From: Mytilus edulis
Lineage: Eukaryota
DNA: 64,000 nucleotides
NCBI RefSeq assembly: GCF_963676685.1
Contig: NC_092354.1
Location: 21,576,001-21,640,000 of the forward strand
Reading direction: 5' to 3'
Position numbers and translations under genes: made by a program. This document shows, in pieces, positions 37,801-61,783 of the stretch. The first letter of the stretch is position 1, and each line of letters opens with the position of its first letter. Below the pieces are notes generated by a model. That model was not told the origin of the DNA. It was given only the letters and a program-made list of their open reading frames with translations, and ran no database searches.

Positions 37801-39783
37801 TGTAAGCTCTCAGAGTTTACCATTTAAGCACTACAATCTTTTCTTTTTCTATGGGAAAAAGACATTATTCATACTTAAATGTTTGTCCCTAAAATTTTAT
37901 TAACTGTGAATTTGCATTCAGATATCGCAGATCAAATTATATTCGTTCATAGTGTGTTAATTTTCGTTTTTTGATTGCGTTAAGCCTGCCAATTGATATT
38001 TTATCGTGTGTTTTACTATGTTGTGATGTTATGCTATTGTTTCAGAAAAAGGTAGAAGGTTTGGTACCATTAAAACGTTTAATCCCGCTGCAAATGTTTG
38101 CACCTGTCCTAAGTCAGGAATCTTCTGTACAAATGTTGTCAGTTGTTTATGTAATTTATACGTGTTTCTCGTTTCTCGTTTTTTATATAGATTAGACCCT
38201 TGGTTTTCCCGTTTGAATGTTTTTCACTAGTAATTTTGAGGCCCTTTATAGCTTTTTGTTCGGTGTGAGCCAAGGCTCCGTGTTGAAGGCCGTAGATTGA
38301 CCTATAATGGTTTACGTTTATAAATTGTTATTTTCATGGAGAGTTGTCTCATTGGCACTCACACAACATCTTCCTATATCTATTATATAGCCGAATATTA
38401 ATATCATTTACTAAATGAATATATCATTTTATTTTTATTGATAATTTTTCCCTCTTTATTAGAACAAGGACACTATTTATACATAGAAGCATCGGATATG
38501 AATTATCAGAACTTTGTTCGATTGCTTTCCGATGATATTGCATGGCCACAGAGAACATGTTTAACGTTCTGGTATCATATGTATGGACATTTCATAGCAT
38601 CTTTAAGTGTTTATTTAAAGGTAAGTAAAACCAGTCAGAATATAGAACATAAGCGTATATGAAACTTTAATCTCTCTATAGAACACTTAAAATTGCAAAG
38701 GATAGCAAATGCCTACATGCACAGTTGATCGAACTATATCACGCATACAATGGCAAAAAAAAACCTCTATGTACATGCACCGTCGATTGCACTATAGAAC
38801 ACGTTGTAAAAAATAGCATATGCGCAAGGAACCACAATCATACTGTAGAACACATAAAAAGCAAAATAGGGAGCGTACATACGTAAAGAACTGTCGATCC
38901 TACTACAGAGCATAAAAATCAAAAACAGAAGCGTATTCGTACAGAAACCGTCAATCGCATTTAAAAAGAAGCATTTGATTTGATTACAGTAGCCATTAAT
39001 CGCGTCACGAAGCATATACAAGTCAAAAAGGCAGCGTATACGGATAGCATTACAAGGTACTGACAAAAAAGGGGAAACAAATGCAAATACATACAGAATC
39101 TGTCGATTGCTCTACAGAACACAGGTAGCATATGCGTACCATAACCCCACTATGGAGCACATCAACAATTAAATTGTAGCATATATGAGTACAGGGATTG
39201 AAGTCATAAAACTTTGCTCAGTGTTTGGAGCACAAAAGTCATGCTCCAAACATGAAATACAGCTTTTTGATTGGTTGATTTTCGAGTACGAGTACAAAAA
39301 TCTGACTCGAAAGTTTTATGACCGCAAGGCCTGGAATCGATACGTCGTAATGATTTTTAAAAACATCTCCACTGGCCACCTTTTTAGATAGTGGTAAAAT
39401 AAAACAATAAAGAAAAACAGACAAAATTTATAAAAACACAAAACAAACATAAATGGAGATTGAATTTGGTTGATCTATTATCGGAATGAACTCGTATTCT
39501 TTGACCTCAATACATTTGGTTGAATAAAACCATTGGCTGACTAGGTTTTTATTTTTTTTGTTTATATTATTTCAAAGTTTACAAATTGATATTAAAGGAT
39601 AGTGATGGTAATTTACAAAAATTATGGAGTCAGTCTGAAAACCATGGCAACAACTGGTTACCAGCTAAAATAAATTTACCAGATACTTCAGGACAAATAG
39701 TAATAGAGGGGTACAGGGGAGCAGATATACATGGCGATATAGCAATAGACGATATTGTACTGGTTCGTAATTGTGGTCCTTAA
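19798..39783 (+). CDS. Secreted protein: signal peptide + 2x Ly6/uPAR-like 12-Cys domains + Thr-rich mucin stalk + MAM domain (11 coding exons, ~523 aa)
   Basis: Exons 19798-19816, 22688-22729, 23842-23924, 25404-25475, 26610-26865, 27855-27946, 31478-31555, 35362-35800, 36825-36971, 38463-38620, 39598-39783. All junctions are GT-AG with matching phases; total 1572 nt with no internal stop. Confidence 0.85.
20022..20416 (-). mobile_element. Retrozyme-like / Penelope terminal-repeat element with two hammerheads 322 nt apart
   Basis: ~73-bp direct repeats at 20022-20094 and 20344-20416, each containing the hammerhead; decayed family members at ~3790-4015, ~37345-37700 and ~56560-57060. Confidence 0.8.
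20055..20098 (-). ncRNA. Minimal type I hammerhead ribozyme
   Basis: Minus strand GCGUCA CUGAUGA GUCU-UAUGU-AGAC GAAA CGCGCG UC UGGUGU: intact core with a palindromic minimal stem III. Confidence 0.85.
20530..20707. mobile_element. 177-bp MITE copy
   Basis: Same TIR and TA TSD. Confidence 0.9.
20712..21185 (+). mobile_element. LINE 3' fragment (…LCKKCEVLDDEFHFFLYC…, 3' UTR, AATAAA + (att)n tail)
   Basis: C-terminal Cys/His motif as in the other LINEs; inverted homolog at 2210-2690. Confidence 0.75.
21528..21708. mobile_element. MITE with ~38-bp TIR; its left junction is tandemly duplicated (21324-21445)
   Basis: aatt…tttcagaatctaaagcatcatgggtaat / attacccaggatgcattagattctgaaa…aatt. Confidence 0.7.
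22688..22729 (+). CDS. Exon 2 (signal peptide hydrophobic core YCVVFLFLNNLSAA)
   Basis: ttccattgtag acceptor, G|gtaagt donor, phase 1-1. Confidence 0.7.
22755..22985. repeat. ~39-bp intronic minisatellite
   Basis: tttggcaacattcttgtttactgtata units, 6 copies. Confidence 0.8.
23842..23924 (+). CDS. Exon 3, LU-like domain 1 start (DGGLTCLSCKHMVQPGDCFKLTTCGDHE)
   Basis: tatttcag acceptor, GAG|gtaaac donor; LxCxxC three-finger N-terminal pattern. Confidence 0.85.
24112..24287. mobile_element. TA-flanked MITE (TIR CTGTAAACCAACTTATTTTCGCG); relatives at ~36571-36770 and ~59270-59450
   Basis: 23-bp TIRs, TA TSD. Confidence 0.85.
25404..25475 (+). CDS. Exon 4 (QCYLRRYVTSSGTTWYDVGCLDNT)
   Basis: catttcag acceptor, ACG|gtacgt donor, phase 0-0; C...GC pattern. 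Confidence 0.85.
25541..26206. mobile_element. Interspersed element, possibly a non-autonomous Helitron/Helentron; partial copy at ~10178-10400
   Basis: Shared AACACACCCGTGATATC… start; internal duplication; GC hairpin at 26179-26206. Confidence 0.5.
26610..26865 (+). CDS. Exon 5, LU-like domain 1 end with 2x TLPPSIIGKRQ and C-x2-CC-x5-CN
   Basis: Within ORF 26577-26873; attcag acceptor, T|gtaagt donor; CC...CN motif typical of Ly6/uPAR domains. Confidence 0.9.
27855..27946 (+). CDS. Exon 6, LU-like domain 2 start (SLSNPGPICYSCKEAQTADSCDQIVQCGEDE)
   Basis: taacag acceptor, GAG|gtctgt donor; paralogous to exon 3 with the same phases. Confidence 0.85.
29288..30418 (+). mobile_element. 5'-truncated Penelope-like retroelement (RT C-terminus/thumb, no C-terminal GIY-YIG; Naiad/Chlamys-like)
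   Basis: TKIYDKRDDFSFPIVNYPFLDGDVPLSPSYGVYISQLVRFARVC… open to TAA at 29782; 3' part recurs at ~56690-56945 (+) and ~27308-27520 (-). Confidence 0.8.
29833..29899 (+). promoter_or_regulatory. SECIS element (form 2) in the 3' UTR of the Penelope-like element
   Basis: tcatat…ATGAT GGTATGATACT AAA CCC-ctaac-GGG a AGGATTGTGCC TGAT…atatga: AUGA/GA core, 11-bp helix II, apical AAA, mini-stem, helix I. Confidence 0.8.
30956..31163. mobile_element. TTAA-flanked MITE (relative at ~48950-49145)
   Basis: ttaa|GGAGGTAGACCTAGGTTAAGG…CCTTAACCTAGGTCTACCACC|ttaa. Confidence 0.8.
31478..31555 (+). CDS. Exon 7 (KCFIGQVFNRLSQEKRWTHGCKSNKT)
   Basis: gtttcag acceptor, ACG|gtttgt donor; paralogous to exon 4. 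Confidence 0.85.
32138..34848 (+). mobile_element. 5'-truncated young LINE (CR1/L2-type non-LTR retrotransposon)
   Basis: Uninterrupted RT frame from ~32139; AATAAA followed by a (gtttcaa)n tail; 5-bp duplication gttgc at 32133-37 and 34849-53. Confidence 0.95.
32280..34679 (+). CDS. LINE ORF2 reverse transcriptase (endonuclease lost by 5' truncation)
   Basis: NYRGI, QAGFR, DYRKAFDSV, GVRQG..LSP, YADD motifs; C-terminal ERIC-x2-C…DEFH…C. Confidence 0.95.
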   Translation: MLIKTTSNVKKHGCKKYNHCKKYFNSECYTKRKAYRKAKKYHYRVRSVVNHNDLVRKSKEYKNILKKQFCEFQKAFIGKLRGLRTSDPKSYWSLLNKGCEKGKATQQKVAMNVFFDHFKNLNNVVNDIDIVLPDNVTEYNTVINEPISEKDVLDAIKTLKNDKACSNDMILNEFLKHGAVKLLPVYVKIFNIIFESGIVPDSWSQGFICPIYKSKGDPASADNYRGITILSCYGKLFTCILNNRLFNYLECLGLLCEEQAGFRKGYGTVDHIFNLKCLIDMYLFRRKKLYCAFVDYRKAFDSVNRVLLWQKLLRNGIDGKMLIIVQNLYKNAKSCVRSGSNFSEFFASNVGVRQGENLSPLLFSIFLNDLTDFLSHAYNGLSDICNMSHLLFDNDDIEVFFKLYLLLYADDTVIFAESATELQSALNAMYLYCETWKLSVNVAKTNIVIFSKNRQGENTQFFYNNEPIAVLDDFLYLGTVFSRKGTFHNNKARLVQQARKAMFYVLCKARKLSLPIDILLQLFDAMVAPILLYGAEVWGYENNDIIESLHLEFCKYILKVKKCTPNYIVYGELGRTPMSICIKARMVGFWQRILNGKKEKISRTLYDMLHKLNEGDVYHSKWLLYIKDILIECGYGNYWYDQSVLRNINLSKNVKQVLHEKFVEGWKLQVYDSPKCINYRIYKSDFKFENYLTVLPPDLMYNLTKFRCGSHKLPIEAGRFFSINRAERICDLCNKQELGDEFHYIFNCNFFTQERLKFIPDHIYKNKNTVSLSNLMSSQDKYVLVGLAKFCKIVMSVFK
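35362..35800 (+). CDS. Exon 8, LU-like domain 2 end (CAYTQGKRD...CEECCEDHLCNNVC) plus mucin-like (TTLPTTKT)n stalk
   Basis: ttgtag acceptor, G|gtagga donor; ~24-nt Thr-rich repeats in ORF 35437-35910. Confidence 0.9.
35811..35981. mobile_element. Diverged relative of the 177-bp MITE, 10 nt downstream of the exon 8 donor
   Basis: ta|CAGTGAAACCTG…AAGTTACACTG|ta. Confidence 0.75.
36825..36971 (+). CDS. Exon 9, MAM domain N-terminal part (CDFEADLCNW...TGPDSDHTLG)
   Basis: MAM signature CDFE-x3-C-x-W and TGP-x2-DHT; G|gtaaga donor. Confidence 0.92.
38463..38620 (+). CDS. Exon 10, MAM domain middle (GHYLYIEAS...CLTFWYHMYG)
   Basis: MAM signature motifs; AAG|gtaagt donor. Confidence 0.92.
39598..39783 (+). 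CDS. Exon 11, MAM domain C-terminal part (…GNNW…GDIAIDDI…CGP*)
   Basis: GDIAIDDI MAM motif; stop TAA at 39781-39783. Confidence 0.9.
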   Translation, partial: DSDGNLQKLWSQSENHGNNWLPAKINLPDTSGQIVIEGYRGADIHGDIAIDDIVLVRNCGP

Positions 39784-42431: not shown

Positions 42432-42731
42432 ATGAATTTTTTGTTTAGAATTATAATTGTTTTTGGAACTATCCTCATAACGCCTCGTTGTTGTCAAACA
42501 AAAGAGAAAATATTCAGCAGAACTTCTGGTTTTCGAATAATGGCGTCTTTGACAGAACCTGAAATAAGTGTAGCCATTATGGAAGATTGTGTTGTTTACT
42601 GTATGCAGACAACATTATGTGTTGCTGCTAATTACAAACCTGACAGTAACATCTGTGAACTATCGAGGATCCATCCTAATGACCCGAGTTTCGAATTACG
42701 TATGAGACCAAATTGGAGTTATATATTCTGA
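42432..42731 (+). CDS. Small secreted PAN/apple-domain protein, paralog 1 (99 aa, intronless)
   Basis: Hydrophobic N-terminus; EDC-x3-C-x5-C-x3-NY-x6-CELS PAN pattern; homologous to three other ORFs in the window. Confidence 0.85.
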   Translation: MNFLFRIIIVFGTILITPRCCQTKEKIFSRTSGFRIMASLTEPEISVAIMEDCVVYCMQTTLCVAANYKPDSNICELSRIHPNDPSFELRMRPNWSYIF

Positions 42732-44224
42732 GATTTCATTTTGAGGAAGGTTTACAGAATCCAGAATGTGTGACTTTCTAACTGAAAATACTTCTTTTTG
42801 CCTCTTTTCTGTTTTCTATACAACAAATGAATATGTGTCCTTGGAAATGTGCGAACAGTGTATTTTCATATTTTCAATTAAGTGAAAGTTTGGTTTGATT
42901 TTTTGGGAATAAATAAAGAAAAAAGAGAATGATTGATGAATTTATTTTCCCGTTAATTATTTCGGATTTATTTTTTACACTTCCATTTCCAATGTATATG
43001 CACAAATAACAATCACCACAATGGGCCTACATGAAACTAGGTTGAACCTTCAACCAATGATTTCACAGAATGAAACATCAATCAGTACTTCTCCAATGGA
43101 CTTAGTGCTCGTCTCAAATTTTAGGAAACTGTTTTCCTATTGGTAAGTTTTTTTTTTTATTGAATTGATTTTTGGCTTAGCATCGATTTGACGATCCTTG
43201 TCAATTTTCAACCGATGTTAATAGTTTGAACAAACTGATATAAGTATAAAATTTAGGTTTCAAACTATTTTTTCTCTAAAAAAGAAATAAGATGTGGTAT
43301 CAGTGTCAATGAGACACCTCTCCCTTCAAGTCACCGAGTGTAAAAAGTAAACATTGTAAACAACTTCTGCCTTCATTACGAAGCTTTGGCTCACAGCGAA
43401 AATCAAGCTATAATGAGCCTTAAAATGACTAGACGCGTAAAACAATAAAAAAAATGGAAAAAACCACGATTTAATCTATCTGCAAAAACGTGAAACGCGC
43501 GCGAAACACACGAGCCACACCAAGAAACGACAATTACTCCTAATTTTCAAAACTGCACCTCGGAAAGGAACATGAAGAGTGGTTATTTCCTGTTTGTTTT
43601 GTTTGATATATAAAGATATGTAGCTCATTTAACAGCAGCTAAATTTGGAATCAATGTCACATAAAAATGAAACGAGGTCAACTCATACATCGTTATAAAT
43701 AGATATAGGAAAACATGTATATGCCAATATATAGAATATATTTATAATCAAATTCATGATTGCATTTTTTTTAAAAGAAAGTAACTTGTCACATTTTGTA
43801 ACAGGTATTATAGGTGATGGATATTGCTGAAAAGCAATACTAGAATATTGGAAACAATAAAATATTGTGTCTCTGTTTTGATAGATGACGAGATTGATTT
43901 TGTTTATTCAGCGATATCTATATTAAGGAATATCAGATTTTATTTTTCTGTTTTCTCATTTTCACAATAGTAATTGCAATATCGAATACATAACGTTTTT
44001 TTTTTAATTTTCATGCCAGGGGAGTGTTAAAGGTATGCAATTTTCGTATGGCAACGTTCATCTAATAAAACACAAGGGTTCATATATATAATCGAATTGA
44101 CCATATGTATTCAAAGTGATGAATTAATGAAGGCTTTAATAAATTAAAATTGTTCTAGAACGACATTTTTACTTGTCGTCTAATTTTGGAGAATTTTGAA
44201 TAGAGTTAGGCACGTTGATGCTAA

Positions 44225-44730
44225 AAATGATAGTTAGTTCCCGCTCTACTAGGCGCCTGTATTGTTACTCATTGATGGCAAGTAGTTCCTTTTCCACTAA
44301 GCGCATGTAGTGTAACGGATTGGTGGTCAAAAGTTCCTGATCCACTTTGCACCACTAATGTTACTCACATTGACTGTAAGTAGTTCCAAATCGACTAGGT
44401 ATGATGGTAAATAGTTCACGATCCAGTAGGCGTCCGTAGTGTTACTCTTTGATGGTAAGTTGTTTCCGGTCCACTGTGTCCCAGTAGTATTTCCCTTATT
44501 GAATGAAAGTAGTTCCCGATCCACATGGCGTCCGTGGTGTTTCTCTTTGATGGTAAGAAGTTCCCGGTCAATTATGAACCCGTAGTATTTCTCCTATTGA
44601 TTGTAAGCACTTCCCGATTCACTTAGCGCCCGTAGTGTTACTAATTGATGGTCAGTAGTTTCCAATCAACTAGGCGATTGTAATGTTACTCACCGACAAT
44701 AAGTAGTTCACGATCTACTAAGTTCCGCTC
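44225..44730. repeat. ~50-bp degenerate minisatellite, ~10 copies
   Basis: gtagttcccgatccactaggcgtccgtagtgttactc units. Confidence 0.85.
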
Positions 44731-45180
44731 TGCTAGGTGTCGATAGTTGTCCATTCTGGTATCTTTCGCTTTTTCTCAAGAGCTCTATATTCCATTCTTC
44801 TTTAAAGTTCCCAAAATGAATTCTAATAATAAAATGTAAGAATTCGTCCAAATAGTTTCAGAATAGAAAACTTTTGAAAAATAAAAAACATATAATTGAT
44901 AAATTGCTAACATATTAAATCCTTTTTGATCTTTCGACCTTTCTTTTAAAGACTGAGAATGTTCGAAATGCGTTGATTTATATATAGTTGATCCTTAATT
45001 GATTTTGTCGGTATGCTAGCTCCTCTATATGTTAATCAAATGTATTTACTTATCTCAAATATAACAAAATGATAAAACAAAGCAACATTGAATATAACAG
45101 TAGACAATAAAAAGATCTTCCAAGTTTATCAGAACATGTAGGTTAACACTATATTATCATATTGAGTTGATATTTAATTT

Positions 45181-45568
45181 AATAGACCACTTTCGAGTTC
45201 ATCCGTCACCGGCAAAAACTCGTCAATTATGCGCGCCTTTATGACGTCATTTACCAGATAGAGGGGATCGCCTGTATCCCTGCAATATTTACGTTCATCA
45301 AGCGTGTTAGTGATCGTCGTTGTGCATGATAAACTAGAAATAATGGTTGTTCTGTAGGTACTTAATGACAATTCCCTAATGACAGCAGTGCTGATTGTCA
45401 ATTTTGAGAATTTAATTTGGCTGAATAATTCGTACAATATAGAATTATAGTTTTCCAACCACTCGCTCAACATTGAAACGGAAGTGACGACACCCCTAAA
45501 CGCACAAATGACGTTCACTAAAACCAGAGTTTTTGACGGAAATGCATCGAACTCGAAAGTTGTCTATT
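45181..45568. mobile_element. Non-autonomous DNA transposon with 20-bp TIR, inserted upstream of the PAN pseudogene
   Basis: AATAGACCACTTTCGAGTTC…GAACTCGAAAGTTGTCTATT; absent from the paralogous flank at ~42220. Confidence 0.8.
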
Positions 45569-45825
45569 GCTTTATTGTTAAAACATGTTGTTTTATGAAG
45601 TTAAAATATATGTGTCAAATATCGTTTGGATATACTATCACAATAGATACCAGGATTACAATTATGACGCATATGGAGGTATAGAAAAAAATATTTGGGT
45701 TTTTCTTCTTTTCAGAAAGCAGCAAAGTCGAAAACTGAAGGAAAGCAATTCAAGGATTTTTTATTCCATTGACTAAAAATGTACAATCTGATCTTGTTGA
45801 TCGGTACTTTATTGATATATAAGAT

Positions 45826-47128
45826 GATCCTCGTAACATCTTGCTGTTACACGCAACAGAAGGTAAAATCACAAAAATACTGAACTTAGAGGAAAATCAA
45901 TTCGGAAAGTCCATAATCACATGGCAAAATCAAAAAACAAAACGCATCAAAAACGAATGGACAAGAACTGTCATATTCCTGACTTGGTACAGGCATTTAT
46001 GGTGAATTAAACCTTGTTTTATATCGATAACCCTCTCACTTTGATGACAGTCTCATCAGATACCGTTACATTTACAATGATGCGTTAACTAACCAGACAC
46101 AATAAATAAAATAGTCAAAATATGGTTACAGCAGTCATCATCGTGTTACAATTTTAAAAGGAACAATTTGACAGAACACAAAAACATCTATCTACAAACA
46201 CATTCATTGATTTGCGTGTCTGACGTCAGAAAATTTTATACGTCACATATATTTTTCGTTCAATGTACATACAAACAATTTCGGAATTTCACATAGGCAA
46301 TGTTAGCTTACAGGGTTAAAAATCAGAAGTATGTAAGAATAAATTTCAGAAATAGACCGAGATTTAAAATAGTCCAAAAGTTATATAGAATTTAAAAGAA
46401 TCCACAAATAGGTAATTCCACTTCGCGATTGAATGATTTTGACGATTGTGGTTCAACGTATTTTGTAATTCATAATAAAAATATATCATAATGACATGAA
46501 ATAGAACAATATGATACTGACGAGATCTTTTAAAGTACAGAGTAACGTTATAAAAGAAAACATTCATAACTATTTCTGACATAAATATTCAGGCGCAATG
46601 GACAACACATGATCCTTTCGTGTCAACTCGGCCGATTCCGTGTCCTCATCTAAGATAGAAAGAGCGGATTCTACCGAGGATTGCCGAATGCTCATGATCC
46701 TTTCGTGTCCATTATGGAGGATTTTTTAGTTTACTGTCATTAAAGCGAGAGGTTCGGTATGCCACAAAACCAGGTTCAACCCACCATTTTTCCATAAAAT
46801 GACCTGTACCAAGTCAGAAAAATGGCTATTGTTACATTATAGTTCGTTTTTGTGTGTGTTACATTTCGGTGTTGTGTCGTAGTTCTCTTATATTTGATAC
46901 GTTTCCCTCAGTTTTAGTTTGTAGCTCGGATTTGTTTTTCTCTATCGATTTATGATTTTTTAACAGCAGTATACTACTGTTGCCTTTATTTACTGTGTGT
47001 AGACAACATTATGTGTTTTCTTCTTATTACAACACTGACAATAATCGCTGTCAACTATCGACGTTTAATCCCAATGACCCGGGAGTGAATATAGTTCAGA
47101 GAAATAAATGGACTATATTTTTCTACTT
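45826..47128 (+). pseudogene. PAN/apple paralog fragmented by three insertions
   Basis: Pieces at ~45826-45856, ~46545-46624, 46710-46737 and 46997-47128 (…NNRCQLSTFNPNDPGVNIVQRNKWTIFY) align to the intact paralogs; frameshifted. Confidence 0.8.
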
Positions 47129-48406
47129 AAATCCATATCCGTACTATTATTTTGTCTTTGTCTTTTTCATTTTTAGCCATGGCGTTGTAACTTAATTTTC
47201 GATCTATGAGTTTGACTGTCCCTCTGGTATCTTTCGCCCATCTTCTGTAATAAAGTGTCTTCTCTGAATAGAATAGATTCAATAGACCCGTGTGAATAAA
47301 CTTACTAGTATCATAGATCATGTAGATACCAGGATTGAAATTTCGTATGTATCCATAGTGTATTTTGATATCCTCATTTTTCACATTTTGTTTTGATTAC
47401 CTGGGGAAAAATTTGAAAAAGGGAACCATTAATAAATATTCATCCCGTAGTATGAATTTGATTAATGTTTATAATTCCGTTCTAAAGAATATGGCCATCA
47501 TAATGCACATTAATGTTCTCGGAATAAACAAGATTTGACATAAAACCAAATGAATGTATTCACAGTAAAAAGAAACATCAATTTGTACACCTCAAACGGA
47601 TTTTTGCGTAACGACGCGATAATCTGATCGTGTGTATTGCCAATATAAGTATTGGCATGATGAAGCACCAGTTTTTTTATTATACCTTTAACATATGAGA
47701 ATTTGAGTAAAAAACGGAGAACATGAATTTGACAGCAAATGCATTACCTCTAGAATAATACAAAATATCGTAATCAGCACACAGGTTATTGCGTATTGGA
47801 CATTAGTAAAACAGGCAATTGTAAAAGAGGATTTTTGAATTAGGTACTGGACATGAGCTATACTAAATTGATCCTGTAATTCCTACACCATTCTGTACCT
47901 CAAACAGTCGTATAAAACAACGTCTTCATTATCTTCTTGTTTAATTCAAAATAAGGGATTAGATAGGAAATTGAAAAATCATGCGATACTTGATTCAACA
48001 AACCCATTTCAACATAAAACTGAGTCTTCTTACTACATTTCTTTTCTTAAATCCTGATTTGTGTTTTTTATGCCTGATGTATCAATGTATTGAAATCAAA
48101 TACATCTTGAATGTCAAAACATTGATAAAATCATTCAACCCAGTGTGATTGGTTTTAAAACAAATTAGTTTAATTTCTGGATTAACAAATATAAATAGAA
48201 TCAGGGTTTTCAATTATTTCAAACTGGTAACAAAACAAACAAAACAGAATTATTTCATTATATATTGTTATACTTCCAAACTAAAACCTCTAATTTCCGA
48301 ATCAAAGCATACTAGTACTACTGAATTATACAGTGCTTTTAATTTCGAATATGTTATGGTTTTTTTTTTAGATGATTAATTATACCCCACCATTCAAAAG
48401 TAGCTA

Positions 48407-48583
48407 CAGTGAAACCTGACTAAACCAAACCCTTTCGGGACTTGAGATTTTGTTCGGTTTTGGCAGGTATTCGGTTTCATCAGGTTCACAATGCATAAAA
48501 TGTGATATGATTGGTCTTCAGAACAAGTTTGGATTAGACAGGTTTCCGGTTTATTCAGGGTTCGGTTTAATCAGGTGTCACTG
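48407..48583. mobile_element. 177-bp MITE copy
   Basis: Same TIR and TA TSD. Confidence 0.9.
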
Positions 48584-49977
48584 TATATTAAAAACCCATG
48601 TCTCATTGAAAAAAATTAAATCAAAGGTGACATAACAACAAACCCGAATTCCGAAAACGGAAAGTCCCTAATCAAATAAAAAAAAAACAAGCTGGAACAC
48701 ATCAAACGAATGGATAACAACTGTTACTTTCCTGACGTTTACCACTTTCAAAAGAATAATTTTCAAACCAAACACAGAATTAGAGTCACGACTACATTTC
48801 TTGTTTTTTTTTGTTGGTAAAGAAAACAGCTTGTTACTGTCTATGATGAATATTGATGGACAACCCGGGTCTTTATTTAAAGTTGTTTATTTTTTTTTTT
48901 ATAGAAGATAGGTTTGATTGTGTTTATCTGTAACATCACACACTTTTAAAGGTGTAGACCTTATTTCAGGGAGATAACTCTTTAAATCTGCGATGCGTTT
49001 GTAAAAGTCAGGTTTTATCAATATATTATAAGCATTTACCTGAAACAGATTGAAAATAATCTATGTAACCTAGAAGCTTAGAACATATTTAGGAAAATGG
49101 TTGACACAAACGTGCAGTTATTTCCCTAAACTTAGGTGTACCTCCTTAAATAACCAGTTATTCAGTATACACCACATGTGTCATGTCATACTTAGATTAA
49201 TGAAAATCTTCAAGTGGTGCAAAGTTGAATTTGGTTGAGTTTTAATAGATTGAGCACATTGACCTCCAACATGGCGACAAAAGGAAAAAACTCTAGCTGA
49301 AATCGCGTCCAAGGATTTTTTTTATTTAAAAACTGACCAGTTAAAGATTGACAGAAAACACCACAACAAAGAGAGGAAACGAGGAACCGATAGACAATTG
49401 TCCACATGATGAAAAAAAGTATGTGCAACAGAACTCAATAATCAGAAAATAAACAAATGCTGACAATTTCAATGGTTATAGAATGCGCCAGTAGTAGTTC
49501 TCTTTCGTGGCATTTAATGAATTTTGCTTTTGTTTTTTCAATTTGTCCTTTTCAGCGGGTGAATGTTAATTTTCTTTTGCGTTAACACTTAACTGGCACG
49601 TGTATGTGTACAACTAGTAATTAAAAACCAAACAAAAAGCTAATAACAATGCTCTATTGTTCATCTAGATAAAAAAAAACGTAGACGATCCAGAAATTCG
49701 AAATTGATCAAAAAGGTCCATTGAAACTTATTGATTAAGATGGTGATCTTATTTTTAATTTGAATTTTATTTGATAGCTTCCATATGAAGATATGTTATT
49801 TCATGATGTTTACGTATATTTGTATCGAAAATTATATCGAATTCAAGGAAGAAAAATTTCATCCTCAGAAAGCTGTTAAACGAATACAGAAGGAAATCAT
49901 TTCAAATTTGTTCAAATTGGTTCATTATTATAAACGTTTTCATTTTATTTTGTTGAATAAACTATAAACTCACAAAG

Positions 49978-50274
49978 ATGAATTTTATGTTAGGAACTGT
50001 ACTGCTTTTTGGAACTTCACTCGTGACATCTCGGTGTGAAACTAAAGAGAAACTATTTAGCAGAAATTCTGGTTTTAGAATTAAAGAGTCTTTGACATTT
50101 CGGGAAGCAGTTGTATTCAACATGGAAGATTGTGTTGTTTACTGTATGCAGACAACTTTATGTGTGTCTGCCAATTACAAACTTGACAGTAACGTCTGTG
50201 AACTATCGAGGATCCATCCTAATGACCCGAGTTTCGAATTACGTACGAGACCAAATTGGAGTTATTTCTACTAA
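49978..50274 (+). CDS. Small secreted PAN/apple-domain protein, paralog 2 (98 aa)
   Basis: Same architecture as paralog 1; C-terminal half nearly identical to it. Confidence 0.85.
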   Translation: MNFMLGTVLLFGTSLVTSRCETKEKLFSRNSGFRIKESLTFREAVVFNMEDCVVYCMQTTLCVSANYKLDSNVCELSRIHPNDPSFELRTRPNWSYFY

Positions 50275-53200
50275 GATGTCATATTCAGGAAGGTTTACAT
50301 GTGTATCTTTATGAGAATACCTCTTTTTGTCTCTAATTTTTCTATTATAGATAAGTTAACCAGTGCGACTAAGTGTCCTGAAACATATACACTCAGTGTA
50401 TTTAGCTATTATCTCTTTTTATTCACGGTATGTTACATTTTAAAGGAATAAATATCTGATTTATGCCTATTCTTCTCGTCATCTGATTGGGATTTATGTT
50501 CACTCTTCCTTTTCCAATGTGTAAAAGAACACTTCATAACGTGCATATATGAAACAAGATTGAACCTTAACCGAGTATTTTCATAGTAAAACAAACCACC
50601 AATCAGGACATCTCCAATGGATTTAGTGTAAAGCCACTATGAACCGTCTATGAACATCATGATCTTGTGCAATGCCAATAGAGTATATACAGTATGCAGG
50701 GCCATAGAGTATCTACAGTATGCAGGACAATAGATTTTGGTTCTGCAAAAATATATGTGTCACTATTTATTGTTAACTGTTCACAAATTCCTCCATGGAC
50801 AGTACGCGTCTGTACTTTTGCAAAGAGGTGTAAAATTTCAAAAGAGAGACCAAAGATACCAAAGGAACAACCAAACTCAAAGGTCGAAAACAAACCGACA
50901 CAGCCATAGCGAAAAACGAAAGCCGCTAATAAGACAAACAGCAGTCTATATAATACAAAATCGAAAACTAAAAACTTAGCAACACATGTTTAGTTATGTA
51001 TAACATTTTGTAAATATTAGACACGAATCGATAACGGCTCCGAATTTGGATATTTTGTAAAACATTGGCGATTTCTGTGAAAAGAGATTGTTTCAAAGAC
51101 AAATTTAGGAATTACAAAACACTTCATGTATACGTCATATCACAAATATTTCGGACGTTGATTTGTGACTGAATGATATTGGTGTCTTTCTTTAGTAGTA
51201 TGGAAGATTAAAGTTAAAAGCAATAAAGATCTAACTAGGATACTATAGAGTAATAAATTTTAATATAAGTCTTTAAAAAATTGATAAGTTCGTATATATT
51301 ATATGTTAACTATACAAGGACTATAAAAGTAGGACGAAAGATACCAGAGGGACAGTCAAACTCATAAATCGAAAATAAACTGACAACGCCTTGGCTAAAA
51401 ATGAAAAAGACAAACAGACAAACAATAGTACACATGACACAACATATAAAACTAAAGAATAAACAACACCAGCCCCATCGAAAACTAGGGGTGATCTTAG
51501 GTGCTCTGGAAGGGTAAGCAGATCCTTCTCCACAGCATTATAAACTACCTGTACAAAGTCAGGAATATGACAAATGCTATTCATTCGTTTGATGTGTCTC
51601 AGCTTTTAATTTTGCCATTTGATTAGGGACTTTCCGTTTTGAATTTGGTATTTATGTAATTTTACTTTTATTCAGTAAAATTAGAAGTGCAATGTCAATG
51701 TAAATAATTGTGGAGAAGAATAATAACACGAGCAACACGACGGATGGCACATGTGGAGCAGGATCTGCTTACCCTTCCGGAGTACCTGAGACCACCCCCA
51801 GTTTTTGTTGGGGTTCGTTTTGCTTAGTCTTTTTTTTCTATGTCGTATCTTGTGTACTTTTACTTGTCTATTTATCTTATCTTTTTTAGCCATTGCGTTG
51901 TCAGTTTATCTTCGATCTTTGAGTTTGACTGTCCGTTTGTTATCTCTAGTCCCTGCTTTAGTTAAATATAATGTAATGTATTTTAAGAAAAACTCAATAA
52001 TTAATATAATTAAATCCCTCCCTCAATTATGGAGTGGGTTTGTAGGCCATATATTTTGAAACCCACCTATAGCCTTCCATCCGTATACATGAAAAAGAAA
52101 CGCGAATGTCTTAGTAAACAAAAAAAGATTGAGTGAAGAAGGTGAATTATTGTTTTTACAAAGCCAATAGCTTTTGAATTATTGGTTAAAATGGTCTCAA
52201 TTTTATCAACCTTTGTTAACATTTTGTTTTTCATTTAATTACGTTGTGTAGTTTTGTTGTATGATTTGTTTGTTTGTTTGTATGAGATCAAAAGAAAAAA
52301 AAATACCAACGGGAGATAACTCTGTGAAATCAGCCAAACGTTTTAATAACGTTGTGTTATAAAGGAAATATTAAGATTCTCAATGATCAAAATTAGTGTT
52401 TGTCAAACTGCTATATAACCAGTGTAATTTTTCTGATAAAACGGTTGGTTCAAATTTAAAAAAAAAAATTATATTTTTGTTAAAGGGTCAAAGTAAATAC
52501 TTTGTCAAAATTTTATGAAAATTAAACGACCCAAATTAATTTTAGTGAAAGTGTTGGGTACCACCTTGAATTCAGAAGTCTAACATATACTGACAATGCA
52601 ATTGCTTTTAAAAAATCAGACAAATAGTAGAACAAAAACACAAGATAAAAAAGTAAAGTTTTTGCAACATAGCCCTCTCCCCAAAAACAATTGCGGGCGA
52701 TCTAATGTTAGAAACCTTTACTTACTTAAAGCTCCGGAATTTCCTTTGTGGATTATTTGCTTCTGTACTTTTTGGCAAAGTAAAAAGACACAAAAGTCTG
52801 TTGACATTGACCATCTCAACTTGATTGACAAAACACACTGTGAAAAAATACATCTAACTTTCTGTAAATAGTGTCTTTTCTTGAAATTAAAAAGACCTCA
52901 TCATATAAATGTATAAATGTATGAGAATGTAACTACGTAGACTTTTAGTTAAAAATTGTATTGTTATCCTACCTAGGTCTGCATTGTCTATAAGACGTGT
53001 CACGGTACTTGTCTATCCCAAATTCATGTATTTGGTTTTGATGTTATATTTGTTATTCTCATGGGATTTTGTCTGTTGCTTGGTACGTTTCTGTGTGTGT
53101 TAAATTGTAGTGTTGTGTCGTTGTTCTCCTCTTATATTTAATGCGTTTCCCTCAGTTTTAGTTTGTTACCCCGATTTAGTTTTTTTGTCCATGGATTTAT

Positions 53201-53894
53201 GAGTTTGAACATCGGTATACTACTGTTGCCTTTATTTGTCACACCACCATACAACAGACTGTAAAATTCAGTTGATAATGGATAAATTCAATAAAACGGT
53301 AGAAAGCAAAAATAAATCAACTGACATAAAGACTAACTAAAGACACAAATCACCGCAGTGTACTCGCAGTTACTGAAAGCTAGTTCAAAGCCAATTATAA
53401 TTAATAAATAAATATGTTTAACTAGATAAAAGTGTACACTAAATTGGGTTTCTTAACTTAATAAAAACAAAACAAAAAGATAAAAGAAATATCAAAGCAC
53501 CATTGATTATCATAGTAGACTATCCAAATACCTTTATTGATCTTTTATTATGTTCTTTTGTGTTTTAGAAAATAATAATTATGACTATATAAATATATTC
53601 AAATCAAATTTAATCCAATTGATTTTATGAGGGGCATATTTAATTCTAGGATGAAAATAATCACAGAATTATTATGTTCGCCTACCCAGAATGCATAAGA
53701 AAACGAATATTGAGGGCAAAACTTTCAAATTGTAAATTGGTAAATCCACAAATAAAATAATCACAGAATGATTATATTCGCCTATCCAGAATGCAGCAGA
53801 AAACGAATACTGACGGCAAATATTTGTAATTGTAAATGAGTAAATTGATAAACAGTTTTATTTCGTTGATTTTGAAAGTTATAAAATTACAGAA

Positions 53895-54173
53895 ATGATG
53901 TTCGGAACAATAATAATTATTATTTGGATTGTGCTCATGCCGCCTCGTTGTGAAACAAATGAGAAAATATTCAACAAAATGTCTGGTTTAAAAATTCGTG
54001 AAGTTCATACAACACATGAAATAGTGGTTTCCATAATGGAAGATTGTTTTGTTTATTGTATTCAGACAACGTCGTGTGTTTCTGTTAATTACCAACCTGG
54101 CACAAATCGCTGTCAACTATCAATGTACCATCCTAGTGATCCAGGGGTTATAATAGTTCAAAGATCAAAATAG
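53895..54173 (+). CDS. PAN/apple paralog 3 (92 aa), truncated by TGG>TAG five codons before the ancestral stop
   Basis: AAA TAG ACT ATT TTC TAC TAA here versus AAA TGG ACT ATT TTC TAC TAA in the adjacent duplicate. Confidence 0.75.
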   Translation: MMFGTIIIIIWIVLMPPRCETNEKIFNKMSGLKIREVHTTHEIVVSIMEDCFVYCIQTTSCVSVNYQPGTNRCQLSMYHPSDPGVIIVQRSK

Positions 54174-54199
54174 ACTATTTTCTACTAAGACTTAATATC

Positions 54200-54900
54200 G
54201 TGTTTTTTTTGTTCATTGTATGCAGACAACGTCATGTGTTTCTGTTTATTACCAACCTGACAAAATCGCTGTCAACTATCAATGTATCATCCAAATGATC
54301 CTGGAGTTATAATAGTCCAGAGATCAAAATGGACTATTTTCTACTAAGACTTAATTTCGTGTTATTTTGGTTTATTGTATGTAGACACCGTCATGCCTTT
54401 CTGTTAAATACCAACCTGGCAATCATCGCTGTCAACTATCAACGTACCATCCTAATGATTCTGGAGTCATAATAGTTAAAGAGATCACAATGGACTATTT
54501 ACTACTAAGACTTTATATCGCAGATTGTGCTGTTTATTGCATGCATACGACATCATGTGTTTCTATAAATTACCAATCGACAAAAATCAGCCCTCAACTA
54601 TCAATGTACCATCCTAATGATCCAGTAGTTTATATCCAAGAATGTTTAAAAAATTTTGAATGTGTGTCTGTCTTAATAAAGTCTCGTTACATCATGCTCT
54701 ATTACAAAAGAGAGGAAAAAAACATTCAATTTCTGACATAAAATTTTAAACGCAAGTAACAACACATGATATTTTTGTGTCGATTATGGAGGATTGTTTA
54801 GTTTACTGTATACAGACAACATCATGTGTTTCTTCTAATGACCTGGGAGTTAAAATAGTTGAGAGAACCAAATGGACTATTTACTATTGAGACATAAATA
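54200..54900 (+). pseudogene. Tandem ~160-bp partial duplications of the PAN 3' half (3 copies) plus another degenerate copy at ~54680-54890
   Basis: Repeated tgtcaactatcaatgtaccatcctaatgat…ggactattttctactaagac with frameshifts. Confidence 0.8.
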
Positions 54901-56086
54901 TCGCGGAATGTTTAAAGAAGTTTGTATGGGTGTGGTTTATAAAGTCTCTTTTCTGTCTGTTAGACCTTCTATAGATTTTTTATTTTTTATTTTTTATTTC
55001 TGGCTCGCCTGCAATCTGTAGGTAAATTTTTCCTTTTTGATAAACGACAGATATGCTCTTTTTCTCGAATTTCCTTTAGCTGTCCAAATGATCTATCAAT
55101 TATCAAATAAACGCGTAAATGTTATGTACCCTTTTTCAATCATAGATTCTATTACGTCATAACACTTCCGGTATTAGATGAGATAGTACTGCGCAACTGC
55201 AACCTCAATGTGTTGCTAACTTTGCTATTGAGCGGACGTGGTTTGTCTCGATGCGCAACCTCTAACTAAGAATTCATTAAAGATATATTAAGTCAATGTG
55301 ATTGACTTGTACATATGAATTACACTTTAACTTCAACTTAACCAAGGTAAGTATCGTTAAATTTGGTAATTCATGTTATAGATATTCACCTTCATAATAA
55401 TTTTCTCTCTCAAACACAACCAATTTGCTCACAACTGTATAGTATCGGATATATCACCGAAAGCCGCAATACATTAATCATGTCTACGTATGCATCTTTT
55501 TTTAAATCATTTATTTAGTATAATCATTCATTGACCCTCTCTCCCAAACAACAGTAAATTGTTCACTACTGTTTATTATGGGTTACATCACCGAACACAA
55601 TGTATTGTTTTTAAAGTCACATGGTAAATGACGTAATTTGAATTATTTCCCTTGGTTGTTGTGTCATGCATGAGATTTATTTGCTTGATTTTCTTTTTTG
55701 AGTTACAATATGGCAAAATTTGTTACACATAAGTCAGATAAAAGATTTTAATTAGATCGTTGTGAAAATTTATAAATGCTTTAAGAAATTAGAATTGTTC
55801 AAAAACTTTTGTGTTGTTTAAAAATTAATTTCGACGAAGTGCTGATGGATTTTAGCACGTTGGCTTTAAATTTAGGGGAAGAGAAAGAACTCTTTCTTTC
55901 ATAGCGCAAATCGAAAAATGTACACAAAAAAGCGAAAATAATAAAAACCAACTTAACAGATATAAAAAAAAACGACGAACAGACAAATGACTGTCAATAA
56001 AACAGTCCACAAAAACAGTCCGAACAGTAATTTCTAGTTCTTGCTTTGGTTCTATTGGTTTCTCTATGGCAAACACGTATGTCCAT

Positions 56087-56230
56087 TTGGTACCCTACTA
56101 CTCCTAGAGGGTCACCACGTGGTATCCCACTCCTCCTAGAGGGTCAGCACGTGGTATTCTACTCCTCCTAGAGGGTCACCACGTGGTATCCTACTCCTCC
56201 TAGAGGGTCACCACGTGGTGTCCTCCTCCT
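56087..56230. repeat. ~31-34-bp minisatellite, 4 copies
   Basis: ctcctagagggtcaccacgtggtatcc units. Confidence 0.9.
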
Positions 56231-57311
56231 TCTTTTTTAATCTATTATTTCATTCTTACGGAAAATTTCGAAATTTCTCCTGTCTGATCAACATCCCTCA
56301 TAAAACAGGGGATAAACAGATACTAATAATGGTAATTATGTCCCGCTTCACTAGGCACCCGTAGTATGATTCATTGATGGCCAGTCGTCTTGATTGTATC
56401 TGTTTCTCTTCGACAAAACAATTGCCTTGTTTGGTATCCTTCGCCTCTTTATTTAAGAAGTTTACATTTGATTCTTATTGAAAATGTACAATACGATAAC
56501 ATTGATAGAATGTGAAGACTCTTGCAAAATAGAAAATTAATTGGTGAAATATTAAATAATACCATCATATATACCAGGATTGAAATTTTGTATTTGTGCC
56601 AGACACGCGCTTTGTCTACAAAAGACTCATCAGTGACCCTCAAATAAATGTTAAAAAGGCAACAAAAAAAAAGAAAGAAAGACAAAAAACCAAGTCAGGC
56701 GCCTCTGGCCTTTGTTAGTCTTGAATGATTTTTAATTTAAGTTTTTTGTGTATAATTTAGAGTTTAGTATGGCGTCCATTATCACTGAACTAGTATGATA
56801 TTTGTTTAGGGGCCAGCTGAAGGAAGCCTCCTGGTGCGGGAGTTTCTCGCTGCATTGAAGACCTATTGTTGACCTTCTGCTGTTGTATTTTTTATGGTCG
56901 GGTTGGTGTCCCTTTGACACATTCCCCATTTCCATTCTCAATTTTGAAATAAAGTACGAAGTTGAAGAGCTTTAAGGACCAAAAATTCCTAAATATTTTC
57001 TAAATACAGCTTACGTAATATATTCCTATGTAGGAAAGCCTAAGTATTTCGAAAATTCAAATATAAAAAAAGAAAATGTGTTTTGATTGCCAATGAAACA
57101 ACTTCCACAAAAGACCAAATGACACAGAAATTATCAACTATAGGCCACCATATGGCCTTTAACAATGAACAAAGTCCGTACCGAAATGTCAACTAAAAAA
57201 GGCCCCAAAATTACGATGTAAAACAATCTCCTGTGGCAGGGTTAAACATGTTAGTAGGGACCCAGTAATATATAATAAGAAGTGCTGCCTACTGGGATCG
57301 TGATATATAAT

Positions 57312-57521
57312 NNNNNNNNNNNNNNNNNNNNNNNNNNNNNNNNNNNNNNNNNNNNNNNNNNNNNNNNNNNNNNNNNNNNNNNNNNNNNNNNNNNNNNNNN
57401 NNNNNNNNNNNNNNNNNNNNNNNNNNNNNNNNNNNNNNNNNNNNNNNNNNNNNNNNNNNNNNNNNNNNNNNNNNNNNNNNNNNNNNNNNNNNNNNNNNNN
57501 NNNNNNNNNNNNNNNNNNNNN
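57312..57521. other. Assembly gap (210 N)
   Basis: Run of N. Confidence 1.
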
Positions 57522-57971
57522 ATTTTTTTTACCTTCTTTTAAAGAGAATGTGAGTTTCTTTCGATTTAATTTATCCTTTACTGATTTTGTTGGCCTGTAT
57601 GATCCTTTATATATTTAATTATCTAAAAGCAAACAAATCGAAAAAACTATGGAATATAAAAGTAGACTATTCAAATATTAAATTTTCCATAAAATATTGA
57701 TTAAGACTATATTATAATATTGCATTGAAATTCAATTGCTTCAATTGCTTCAATGTGTTGTTTTATATATTTACATATATGTAATAAGGATGATATGAAT
57801 AAAAATTCACCATGTATACCAGGATTAAAATTTTGTAAGCCAGGTACATGTTGAATTATAGAGAGAATAATCACATGAGTTTTTAACCAACAAAAAAAGG
57901 CAGCGAAACGAATACCGAAAGAAAACATTTTTCCTCTGTTTTAAGATTATTTATCTTATTGAGTTAGAGAC

Positions 57972-58271
57972 ATGAACTTGGTATTCGGAATTATAATTAC
58001 TTTTGGGACTATTCTCATGATTCATAGTTTTGAAACAAAAGAGAAAATATTCACGAAAAGTTTTCATTCTGATACTAAAATCCGGGCAGGTTTCACATTT
58101 TATGAGCCATATGTATCCAGGATAGAGGATTGTTTAGTGTACTGTATGGCGACACCATGTGTTACTGTTAATTACCAACCTGGCAATAAACGGTGTGAAT
58201 TATCAACGTACCATCCTGATGACCTGGGAAACATATTAAATCAGAAACCCCCTTGGACAATGTACTGCTGA
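57972..58271 (+). CDS. Small secreted PAN/apple-domain protein, paralog 4 (99 aa)
   Basis: Signal peptide, ETKEKIF motif, EDCLVYC…CVTVNY…RCELS. Confidence 0.85.
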   Translation: MNLVFGIIITFGTILMIHSFETKEKIFTKSFHSDTKIRAGFTFYEPYVSRIEDCLVYCMATPCVTVNYQPGNKRCELSTYHPDDLGNILNQKPPWTMYC

Positions 58272-58329
58272 AATTGGGTTTCGATGAACTTGCAGAATCT
58301 TAAAAATGTGTCATTATACTTATCGGTCA

Positions 58330-58580
58330 ACTTCATGACATGTGTTTTTGTTATTTACAAACATTACAATAAACGGTGTGAATTATCAACATACCATCCT
58401 AATGACCCGGGATACATATTAAATCAGAAACCACCTGGACAATGTACTGTTAAAATCCGAATCGATGAACTTGCAGAATCTTAAAAATGTGTTATATTAC
58501 TGTATCAGACAACATTATGTGTTTCTGTTAACTTTTCAATAACCGCTGTTCATTATCAACTAATCAGTCTTATAACCCGG
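58330..58580 (+). pseudogene. Partial tandem duplicate(s) of the paralog 4 3' end
   Basis: 58367-58500 repeats 58185-58320; a further degenerate piece at ~58500-58580. Confidence 0.75.
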
Positions 58581-59507
58581 GATTTTTATCAAGGATATAT
58601 TCTTCTGACGTTTCAGTCTCGTTGACATTTCGTTTTGGAAATATTTCTAAAATATGTGATTCAACATGTTCAAGTTAAAAATATCATTAAAAATTTTAAA
58701 AAAAGTTTTAATTGAACTAAATTGTGTATAAACAATGAATAGTTTTTGAGTAATCAATTTTTCAAATTAAATTACCAATAAAGTCAGTCTTTTGGCCAAT
58801 ATTTCGAATAAAGGGGGTAGAAATTACAAGAAATTATTTTATCACAAACATGTACATCCCACATCCCTTTTCTCTTTTAAAATTTCTTATATATGTATTT
58901 TTAATCATTTATATGAAAGAAGTTGAAAAAATATGCATTCTGTTCTTAAATCTTTGCAAATTTACAAAATTGACAGCATGGTAAATTTGACACAAAAAAG
59001 CATAAAAATATGATAAAGCCTTTTTATATTAACATTTACCTAAAGTTTTTTTCAATTTGAATTTATTCAGATTTGTCCAGTTTATCTTTATTGAAAGTAT
59101 TAGAAAAAACGTTTAACTGTGGAACTGTAATTTTTTTCACATAATAGCCCATAAAATAGGTAAAAATTGATAAAAAATTTGAAACATCATTAAAATTTTG
59201 TACTTTCAAAGAGCCGGTGCAAGAAAAGAAGTGCACGACCATATAATTTCTTCTTCACAAATTATTTTTTAACAGTAAAATGAACCCAAAAATCGCGAAT
59301 ATAAATCGTCGCGAGTAAGTAAAACTTGGATCTTTCATTTTTAAACTTTATTAAGTAAATCAGAAAATCGCGAAATTAAATAGCCGTGAAATGGTCACAA
59401 AAGGGTTACACGCGAAATGAAGTATCTGCGAAAATAAATTGGTTTACAGTAATCAGATATTGTAATGGCAACAATCAGAATATGTAAACAGAGATGGGAA
59501 TGATAGA

Positions 59508-60370: not shown

Positions 60371-61783
60371 TAGATACGAACTAACAGTAATTTAACATAC
60401 TTAAAGGGAGCAAGTTCTTTTATAAGTGGGGCGAGTTGGCAGACCTTTATTCAGTTGGGTTTAAACCTTTTTCGTTTAAAAGTGAGTTGTCAGACTGATT
60501 GTTTTCAATTTGATTTTACACTTTTCAAAAAGTGGGACGAGTCGGTAAACAAGAGTGGGGCGATTTTTTTATAAAGTGGCGATCAGTGTGGGCCGATTGG
60601 AAAGTGGGCGAGTTGACATTGTTTGATATTTACTCGTGTTAGACATAGGGAGGCGGGGCTTATTTCAAAACACGGTTGGTAGAGGAGTTACGACTTGGGC
60701 ACTATTTGACTATTTCCATGTATTCGAAGTTCTGTTAAATGTTGTTATACCAAGGTTCTTGATATTTAATTATTATTGTTGACATTAGGTTTCTTTGGGC
60801 AGACTAATGGAAGTAGGTTCTTAAAATTGAACACTTGAACCCTTTGATATAAAAATAAGAAGATGTGGCATGATTGCAAATGAGACAACTCTTGCCTTAA
60901 TTCAACAAATAAAGATAATCGATAAGATAAATTCGTTACATACTGTGCTCTCACCCAATATGGAATTAACTGACCCTGTATATATCTTATTATGTCAATT
61001 TCACACCATGCAACTAATTATAACTCGAAAGTAATTTATCCAAAGTTTAGTAATATTAAGAACTGATATCGAACGTTTTAGCTTTACAAACATTTAATTA
61101 TTAGTACGCACAGAAGCATTTGATCTTGTTATCCATTGTAAATACAAATTGATCTCCCTATTAAGAGAGAAACTACAAATGGGATTTTTAATTAAAGGGT
61201 GAAATACGGGATTTAATAAATAGACGAATGGAGAAAGAATGTATAGCAGGAGATGATTATTTTGCTTGAAATTTATTTATAGATTATAACATTCCATTTT
61301 CCATAATGGCCTCGGTATCATCTAGAGACTTTAAACCAGTCTTAAGCTTTAGCTGAGGACCGATATATGTCAGGGGATGATACCAGGGCTAATATGGAAA
61401 AGACATTTTATAATATATTTGTCACATAATTAAGTTTTGCAGAAAAGAGAAAGAACATTCAATCAATGTTAATCTGATTAACAACAAAAGGAAAAATAAA
61501 TCGCATTTTCCCAAAAAAAAAATCATTTAGCTTACACATTTATTGTATCATTATCCCTTATTTTTACTATGGTAATACACCAAAGCAATGCTTTGACTTA
61601 ACTGAGTCTAAATCGAAAATATAGTTAGTTGCACATTGTTACTAGTAGCTATTGTAGCTAATCCTAATTAAATTTCAATACAAACACCGTCATTATTCAT
61701 CACTGTCGTTAAAAACACAATGATGTCACGTAATTTGGAATCAGGATAAAATAACCAATAACGGTTTATTCTCCGGGCAGCTA

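What the first reader, a model, noticed from the sequence alone, without database searches (positions are those of the whole stretch)
42432..58580. Birth-and-death cluster of intronless secreted single-PAN/apple mini-proteins
Seen: four co-oriented ~100-aa ORFs (signal peptide, TKEKIF-like motif, 4-Cys PAN core, HPxDP…W tail), at least two decayed near-full copies and several partial duplicates within 16 kb. Established: PAN/apple modules mediate protein or carbohydrate binding and usually occur in multidomain proteins. Inference: a rapidly turning-over family of ~9-kDa stand-alone effectors or lectins (immune, mucosal or reproductive), and a candidate for presence/absence variation between individuals.
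Basis: partly seen in the sequence, partly recalled or inferred. Interest (0 to 1): 0.7.

Follow-up and report, generated by a model that had tools for sequence, protein, structure and literature searches.

The report
Mussel stand-alone PAN mini-protein gene cluster
A 93-kb run of duplicated genes in a genome that is likely a mussel's encodes tiny proteins made of one predicted binding domain with a predicted secretion signal, likely cut loose from larger multidomain proteins; the genes show selection to stay intact, but no RNA was seen for the three copies tested and what they bind is unknown.

Summary
The cluster is real and larger than reported: 12 intact and about 8 broken near-full copies plus 9 short 3' duplicates over about 93 kb, running 72 kb past the window. 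All 13 long ORFs pass Pfam PAN_1. A model (pLDDT 94.5) matches plasminogen/HGF PAN and leech LAPP. PAN exons are common in this genome (140 matches of 150 scored), but 28 of 30 others carry a splice donor before their stop; 0 of 13 cluster copies do. Nearest outside relatives look like first exons of PAN-kringle genes, so the family likely arose by truncation. Selection is purifying (omega 0.53), with weak site-level positive selection and A/B gene conversion. Against: essentially no RNA reads on copies A-C in 4 of 4 runs; other copies untested; ligand unknown; 'intronless' unproven. The scan had noted a different WSC-PAN cluster in this genome, not this family. A new variant of a known kind; moderate interest.

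The parts
42432..42731 (+). Copy A, intact ORF, 99 aa: predicted signal peptide + single 4-Cys PAN domain; AATAAA 177 nt after the stop
   Evidence: (PAN_1 27.8 bits)
46555..47124 (+). Broken copy psi1: mature region only, frameshifted, short internal duplication, split by a ~250-bp repeat (46738-46984); start coordinate approximate
   Evidence: the inserted stretch is covered by repeat-type RNA reads
49978..50274 (+). Copy B, intact ORF, 98 aa; 3' half homogenised with A (likely gene conversion)
   Evidence: (27.1 bits)
53895..54188 (+). Copy C: ORF ends early at 54173 (TAG at the conserved Trp codon), losing the last predicted strand; likely a pseudogene or null allele
54207..54629 (+). Three tandem partial duplicates of the 3' half of C (54207-54357, 54366-54518, 54515-54629), frameshifted or with stops
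54704..54902 (+). Broken copy psi2: mature region with a stop and a ~48-nt internal deletion
57972..58271 (+). Copy D, intact ORF, 99 aa; 89-90% identical intact relatives in other samples (P0003, P0151)
   Evidence: (22.8 bits)
58339..58583 (+). Two partial 3' duplicates of D (58339-58493, 58488-58583)

Best explanation
This is a tandem family of genes, confined to one locus, for ~9-kDa proteins made of a predicted signal peptide and one PAN domain, which likely arose when the signal+PAN first exon of a multidomain gene gained a stop codon, and which likely act as secreted non-enzymatic binders in a narrow tissue or life stage. Shown: ORFs, PAN sequence match, stop before any splice donor, purifying selection, duplication, conversion and decay. 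Predicted: signal cleavage after about residue 20 and the two-disulfide PAN fold. Inferred: the conserved core is a scaffold, while the variable N-terminal strands (residues ~30-51 of copy A) and the pI range (5.7-9.7) give each paralogue a different extracellular protein or polyanion target. The protein would work by coating or masking that target, as leech LAPP does with collagen, rather than by catalysis. The biological setting (mucosal non-self surfaces, or gamete/larval surfaces) is not resolved.
For: Pfam PAN_1 above cut-off in 13 of 13 long ORFs. Model pLDDT 94.5, with VIA-align Z 11.2 to plasminogen PAN, 10.8 to the HGF N-domain and 8.9 to LAPP. No donor-like site scoring above 0 between the domain's end and the stop in 13 of 13 copies, against 28 of 30 other PAN loci in a fixed 42-nt window and 15% of random windows. 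Six of 7 nearest outside relatives have a strong phase-1 donor 27-28 codons after the fourth Cys, where the cluster's stop sits at 24-25 (M 31). Kringle exons lie within 10 kb downstream of two of them, and a C-type lectin exon downstream of a weaker relative. M0 omega 0.53, p=1e-7 against 1; M8 vs M8a p=0.007. Neutral simulation keeps ORF plus 4 Cys in only 1.4% of cases at 0.2 substitutions/site. Intact 88-94% identical relatives of B, D and L exist in other samples. LAPP is a PAN-domain leech salivary protein that binds collagens (PMC7191736, passage).
Against: Essentially no RNA depth on A, B, C in 4 of 4 raw-read runs from 4 studies (about 45 million records; 2-6 reads per run expected per TPM). 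These runs carry a label whose DNA runs hold about half of the query words, and their tissues are unknown. No RNA-labelled run held copy B beyond one 6% share. Copies D-M were not tested for expression. M2a vs M1a is not significant (p=0.087), and the candidate selected sites lie in a gappy region with conversion. No ligand evidence. The donor scores use an approximate recalled matrix, and no single parent gene was identified (best outside match E 1e-5, about 26-31% identity).
Confidence: 0.58

Rival explanations
1. A family in decline: once functional, now mostly silent, its intact ORFs being recent duplicates not yet hit by a stop.
For: No reads on A-C; no convincing RNA holder for B; about 8 of 20 near-full copies broken; omega near or above 1 in some close pairs (L/M 1.28, E/F 1.05, E/G 1.15).
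Against: Overall omega 0.53; youngest pair I/K has omega 0.14; intact relatives of B, D and L in other samples despite 6-12% amino-acid change; invariant Cys and core.
Confidence: 0.2
2. Soluble galactose-type lectins like apicomplexan SML-2 or MIC4 apple 5, acting as pattern-recognition or agglutinating proteins.
For: Same fold (Z 9.8-9.9 to SML-2 and MIC4-A5); SML-2 is the best, though weak, sequence hit in the PDB (E 0.16); these PAN domains bind galactose (PMC10034466, passage).
Against: SML-2 has Lys three residues after the fourth Cys where the family has an invariant Ser. MIC4 needs Lys469 for binding (PMC6608980, passage); that Lys469 is this position is recalled, not tested. Non-lectin PAN domains score as high or higher.
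Confidence: 0.14
3. The ORFs are first or internal exons of larger multidomain genes.
For: That is the usual architecture of PAN exons in this genome. A phase-1 GT lies 15 codons after the fourth Cys in 6 of 13 copies, and an AG|GT motif 18 nt after the stop in 7 of 13.
Against: The in-frame stop precedes any credible donor. The internal GT scores negative and its use would remove the conserved last strand. No kringle, C-type lectin or other partner exon was found in 264 kb with 172 homologues and 9 partner-exon queries. The upstream MAM gene ends with its own stop near 39783.
Confidence: 0.05

Closest known systems
Leech anti-platelet protein LAPP (PDB 1I8N) and saratin (2K13)
   Same: Small secreted proteins built on one PAN fold in a lophotrochozoan; structural match Z 8.9 and 5.2; LAPP binds collagens I, III, IV (PMC7191736, passage).
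   Different: Only 11-16% identity, no evidence of direct orthology; no blood-feeding context; here a 20-copy tandem cluster with active decay.
Plasminogen / HGF N-terminal PAN domain
   Same: Best fold matches (Z 11.2, 10.8; TM about 0.79); four-Cys core.
   Different: There the domain heads kringle-protease chains; here it stands alone; 10-14% identity.
Bivalve signal+PAN multidomain genes (PAN-kringle, PAN-C-type lectin, PAN-VOMI, PAN-F5/8C)
   Same: Signal peptide and PAN in one exon, same Cys and Trp spacing; nearest relatives in this genome and in the protein library.
   Different: They carry a splice donor after the domain; cluster copies stop 3-4 codons before that position.
Apicomplexan apple-domain lectins SML-2 and MIC4
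   Same: Fold (Z 9.8-9.9).
   Different: The Lys seen after the fourth Cys in SML-2 is Ser here; the third, enclosing apple disulfide is absent (apple pattern recalled).
Mytilus expanded, dispensable secreted gene families
   Same: Short ORFs, tandem duplication, pseudogenes; dispensable genes are shorter, younger and less expressed (PMC7653742, PMC10514466, passages).
   Different: Presence/absence was not measured here; PAN/apple terms were not found in the 2 supplements of PMC7653742 or the main text of PMC10514466.

Membership tests
PAN module superfamily (Pfam PAN_1) | Profile score above the gathering cut-off (21.4 bits) | tested here: met
   13 of 13 long ORFs, 22.8-34 bits
PAN module superfamily (Pfam PAN_1) | Four core cysteines in C-x3-C...C...C spacing | tested here: met
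   C53, C57, C63, C75 invariant in 13 of 13 and in 65 of 65 of the wider alignment
PAN module superfamily (Pfam PAN_1) | PAN alpha/beta fold | tested here: met
   Predicted model pLDDT 94.5; all 12 rows with Z>=8 are PAN/apple-containing proteins by title or recall
Apple domain in the strict sense (factor XI type, three disulfides; definition recalled) | Six cysteines including a pair linking the domain ends | tested here: not met
   Mature regions have 4 Cys in 9 of 13, 5 in 2, 6 in 2 (L, M; internal extra pair)
Galactose-binding apple lectins (SML-2, MIC4-A5) | Conserved galactose-site residues including the critical Lys | tested here: inconclusive
   Ser in place of the SML-2 Lys; mapping of MIC4 Lys469 to this position is recalled; primary paper not held
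Galactose-binding apple lectins (SML-2, MIC4-A5) | Measured sugar binding | not testable with these tools
   needs a glycan array
LAPP/saratin family | Sequence homology to LAPP/saratin | tested here: inconclusive
   Not among the PDB sequence hits of either profile; fold match only
LAPP/saratin family | Collagen binding | not testable with these tools
   needs a binding assay
Birth-and-death multigene family | Tandem duplicates of mixed age with intact and broken copies | tested here: met
   dS from 0.09 to >2; 6-kb and 3-kb segmental duplications at 90-93%; about 8 broken copies
Mytilus dispensable (presence/absence) genes | Absent from some individuals in resequencing | not tested
   No read-depth comparison was made; B-like DNA is held by runs of 4 organism labels
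Expressed secreted proteins | Transcript evidence | tested here: inconclusive
   Essentially no reads on A-C in 4 of 4 runs of unknown tissue; D-M untested

The most novel reading that the evidence does not exclude
The cluster is a set of recognition modules freed from PAN-kringle/PAN-lectin proteins by one premature stop and then diversified under positive selection: soluble decoys or fast-evolving gamete/larval surface binders, made only in a short stage, whose copy number and chimeric alleles differ between individual mussels.
Probability: 0.15. Interest if true: 0.65.

Novelty: new variant of a known kind. Interest (0 to 1): 0.38.

Why it matters
If expressed, it is a compact, well-folding natural panel of 12 sequence-diverse 9-kDa binders on one scaffold, and a clear case of a new gene family born by truncating the first exon of a multidomain gene. 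It would give a simple test of what the many bivalve PAN domains bind, for which I found no study in the library searched. It is not surprising in kind: single-PAN secreted proteins (leech LAPP) and decaying tandem families in mussels are both known.

Tried and rejected
Word-index homologue search with copy A: 1 candidate, none scored. ESM Atlas gave no result for copy A or P0003. First model from 13 sequences was poor (pLDDT 64) and gave only weak Foldseek rows; replaced by a 65-sequence model of the mature part. Foldseek gave no E<=0.001 match even with the good model; the assignment rests on Pfam and VIA-align. Many ~100-140-aa 'single PAN' hits in the protein library (42 of the best 150 are <=180 aa) were considered as further stand-alone relatives, but most run on a few residues past the domain in the way first exons read into introns do, so they are not counted as stand-alone. 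Motif scan of 1752 ORFs for partner domains gave 3 matches, all overlapping or directly flanking PAN copies and judged chance. Literature searches found nothing on this family: 0 papers; 1, unrelated; 0; 51 hold the words, 40 listed, none on it by title or abstract start; 2, unrelated; 25, one on a nematode protein; 1, unrelated; most subscription journals are not in the library. No complex prediction was run, as no partner is claimed. A second expression test, on downstream copies J, K, L, yielded no result.

Full report
What is there. The window is G000 C11:21,576,001-21,640,000 of a 1.37-Gb animal genome. I take it to be a Mytilus mussel from its size, its repeats (recalled) and earlier notes of this scan. 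Four + strand ORFs lie at 42432, 49978, 53895 and 57972. They are 42-72% identical and all pass Pfam PAN_1. Copy C stops at the codon of the otherwise invariant Trp and loses the last predicted strand. Two broken mature-region copies and five partial 3' duplicates complete the window part.

Extent. Searches of the genome with three members placed every strong match on C11:21.618-21.712 Mb. In 264 kb (window plus 200 kb downstream) a profile found 13 long ORFs, 12 intact plus C, about 7 further broken near-full copies, and 9 short 3' duplicates. Copy J and several broken copies are on the minus strand. Segmental duplications of 6 kb (93%) and 3 kb (90%) produced some pairs. Pairwise dS runs from 0.09 to above 2. 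DNA upstream of the window was not fetched; within the window no copy lies before 42316.

Protein. Each ORF has a hydrophobic N-terminal stretch (best 11-residue hydropathy 1.9-3.5; no SignalP was available), a mature part of 73-85 residues (8.3-9.7 kDa) and a pI from 5.7 to 9.7. Four Cys and a few core residues are invariant. A model of mature A from 65 sequences has pLDDT 94.5. It aligns to plasminogen PAN (Z 11.2, rmsd 2.0, 73 residues), the HGF N-domain (10.8), factor XI/kallikrein apples (10.0), MIC4-A5 and SML-2 (9.8-9.9) and leech LAPP (8.9). It is a four-Cys PAN, not a six-Cys apple (definition recalled).

Stand-alone or exon? This was the key test. PAN exons are abundant here: 140 matches among 150 scored of 862 candidates. 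In the 30 best of those loci (three pairs are near-duplicates), 28 have a donor-like site before the in-frame stop within a fixed 42-nt window after the domain, against 15% of random windows. In the cluster, 0 of 13 have a positive-scoring donor between the domain's end and the stop. Six of the 7 nearest outside relatives carry a strong phase-1 donor 27-28 codons after the fourth Cys. Of 4 such relatives followed 10 kb downstream, two lead to kringle exons, one to a C-type lectin exon, and one showed nothing recognisable. No partner exon was found in the 264 kb, and the upstream MAM gene has its own stop. So the ORFs are complete as they stand, and the family likely began as a first exon that gained a stop. 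The donor matrix is approximate and recalled, splicing of the relatives was not seen in RNA, and no single parent was identified. An AG|GT motif 18 nt behind the stop in A, B, E-H and J scores weakly (at most 2.9) and may be a relic or a 3'-UTR donor; E-H and J have no AATAAA within 500 nt. 'Intronless' therefore holds for the coding region only.

Selection. On 98 codon columns of the 13 copies (C's stop masked), my own codon model gave omega 0.53 (p=1e-7 against 1). M8 beat M8a (p=0.007) and M7 (p=0.02), but M2a did not beat M1a (p=0.087); the best candidate sites are residues 37, 40, 46 and 49 of A, with posteriors of only 0.71-0.85. Pooled omega is 0.93 for mature residues 22-49 and 0.58 for the core. 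A and B differ at 39 of 144 bases in the first half but 10 of 150 in the second (permutation p=0.001; third positions 13 of 48 against 4 of 50), which points to gene conversion and weakens the site tests. Other samples hold intact relatives of B, D and L at 88-94% identity, one of them a B-head/A-tail mosaic.

Expression, the weak point. Four raw RNA runs from four studies gave essentially zero depth on A, B and C (at most 0.08), while repeats between them were deeply covered; 2-6 reads per run would be expected at 1 TPM. Their tissues are unknown, they come from a label whose DNA shares about half of the query words, and the individuals may lack the genes. No RNA-labelled run held B convincingly. 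Copies D-M were not tested. The genes are therefore not broadly expressed in those samples; narrow expression and silence are both open.

How it likely works. A secreted, disulfide-stabilised single domain without catalytic residues can only bind. Conserved core plus variable N-terminal strands and charge suggest paralogue-specific targets. The closest working precedent is leech LAPP, a PAN protein that binds collagen and blocks platelet adhesion (PMC7191736 and PMC3631404, passages). A galactose-lectin role is less likely, since the Lys of SML-2 is an invariant Ser here; MIC4 needs Lys469 (PMC6608980, passage), but mapping it to this position is recalled. I put 0.58 on functional stand-alone binders, 0.2 on a dying family, 0.14 on galactose-type lectins and 0.05 on exons of larger genes.

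Known or new. I found no paper on this family, no PAN/apple mention in two supplements of PMC7653742 or the main texts of PMC10514466 and PMC11739312, and no earlier scan note on it. Subscription journals are mostly missing from the library, and database annotations may already list some copies. For all papers I saw search listings or passages only. Mussel dispensable genes are typically short, young, tandem and weakly expressed (PMC7653742, PMC10514466, passages), which fits but was not tested. Verdict: a real, apparently undescribed variant of a known kind; interest 0.38.

Noticed in passing
window 35362-39783 (+): Upstream neighbour gene: an exon ending a cysteine-rich three-finger-like module (recalled motif; no Pfam hit) with a KR site and a Thr-rich stalk, then three exons of a MAM domain (Pfam 36-40 bits each), ending in its own stop.
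   Followed up: partly
window 32064-34679 (+): Long intact LINE-type reverse transcriptase ORF (799 aa from ATG, RVT_1), apparently in an intron of the upstream gene.
   Followed up: no
window 8715-9356 (-): 213-aa ORF without a Pfam match.
   Followed up: no
P0002 (Logan contig, 1269 bp): Its upstream and coding part match copy B while the tail after the last Trp matches copy A's 3' flank over about 55 codons read with TGA as Trp: a likely B/A recombinant in another sample; an assembly artefact is not excluded.
   Followed up: partly
window 54207-54629, 58339-58583; L023 7778-7992; L025 2317-2527: Short tandem duplicates of the gene's 3' end sit directly behind the stop in C, D, I and K, apparently arising at least three times; cause unexplained.
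   Followed up: no
L113, L114 (G000 C1:107.8-108.5 Mb): Tandem genes with signal+PAN, Thr-rich, kringle, an unclassified Cys-rich exon and a further kringle: a plasminogen/HGF-like order of domains in a bivalve.
   Followed up: partly
G000 C11:21,646,100-21,648,400 and 21,667,400-21,671,500: Two arrays of an ~87-bp satellite inside the cluster.
   Followed up: no
window 61778-62240 and 63513-63965: A near-identical ~450-bp direct repeat pair seen by eye.
   Followed up: no
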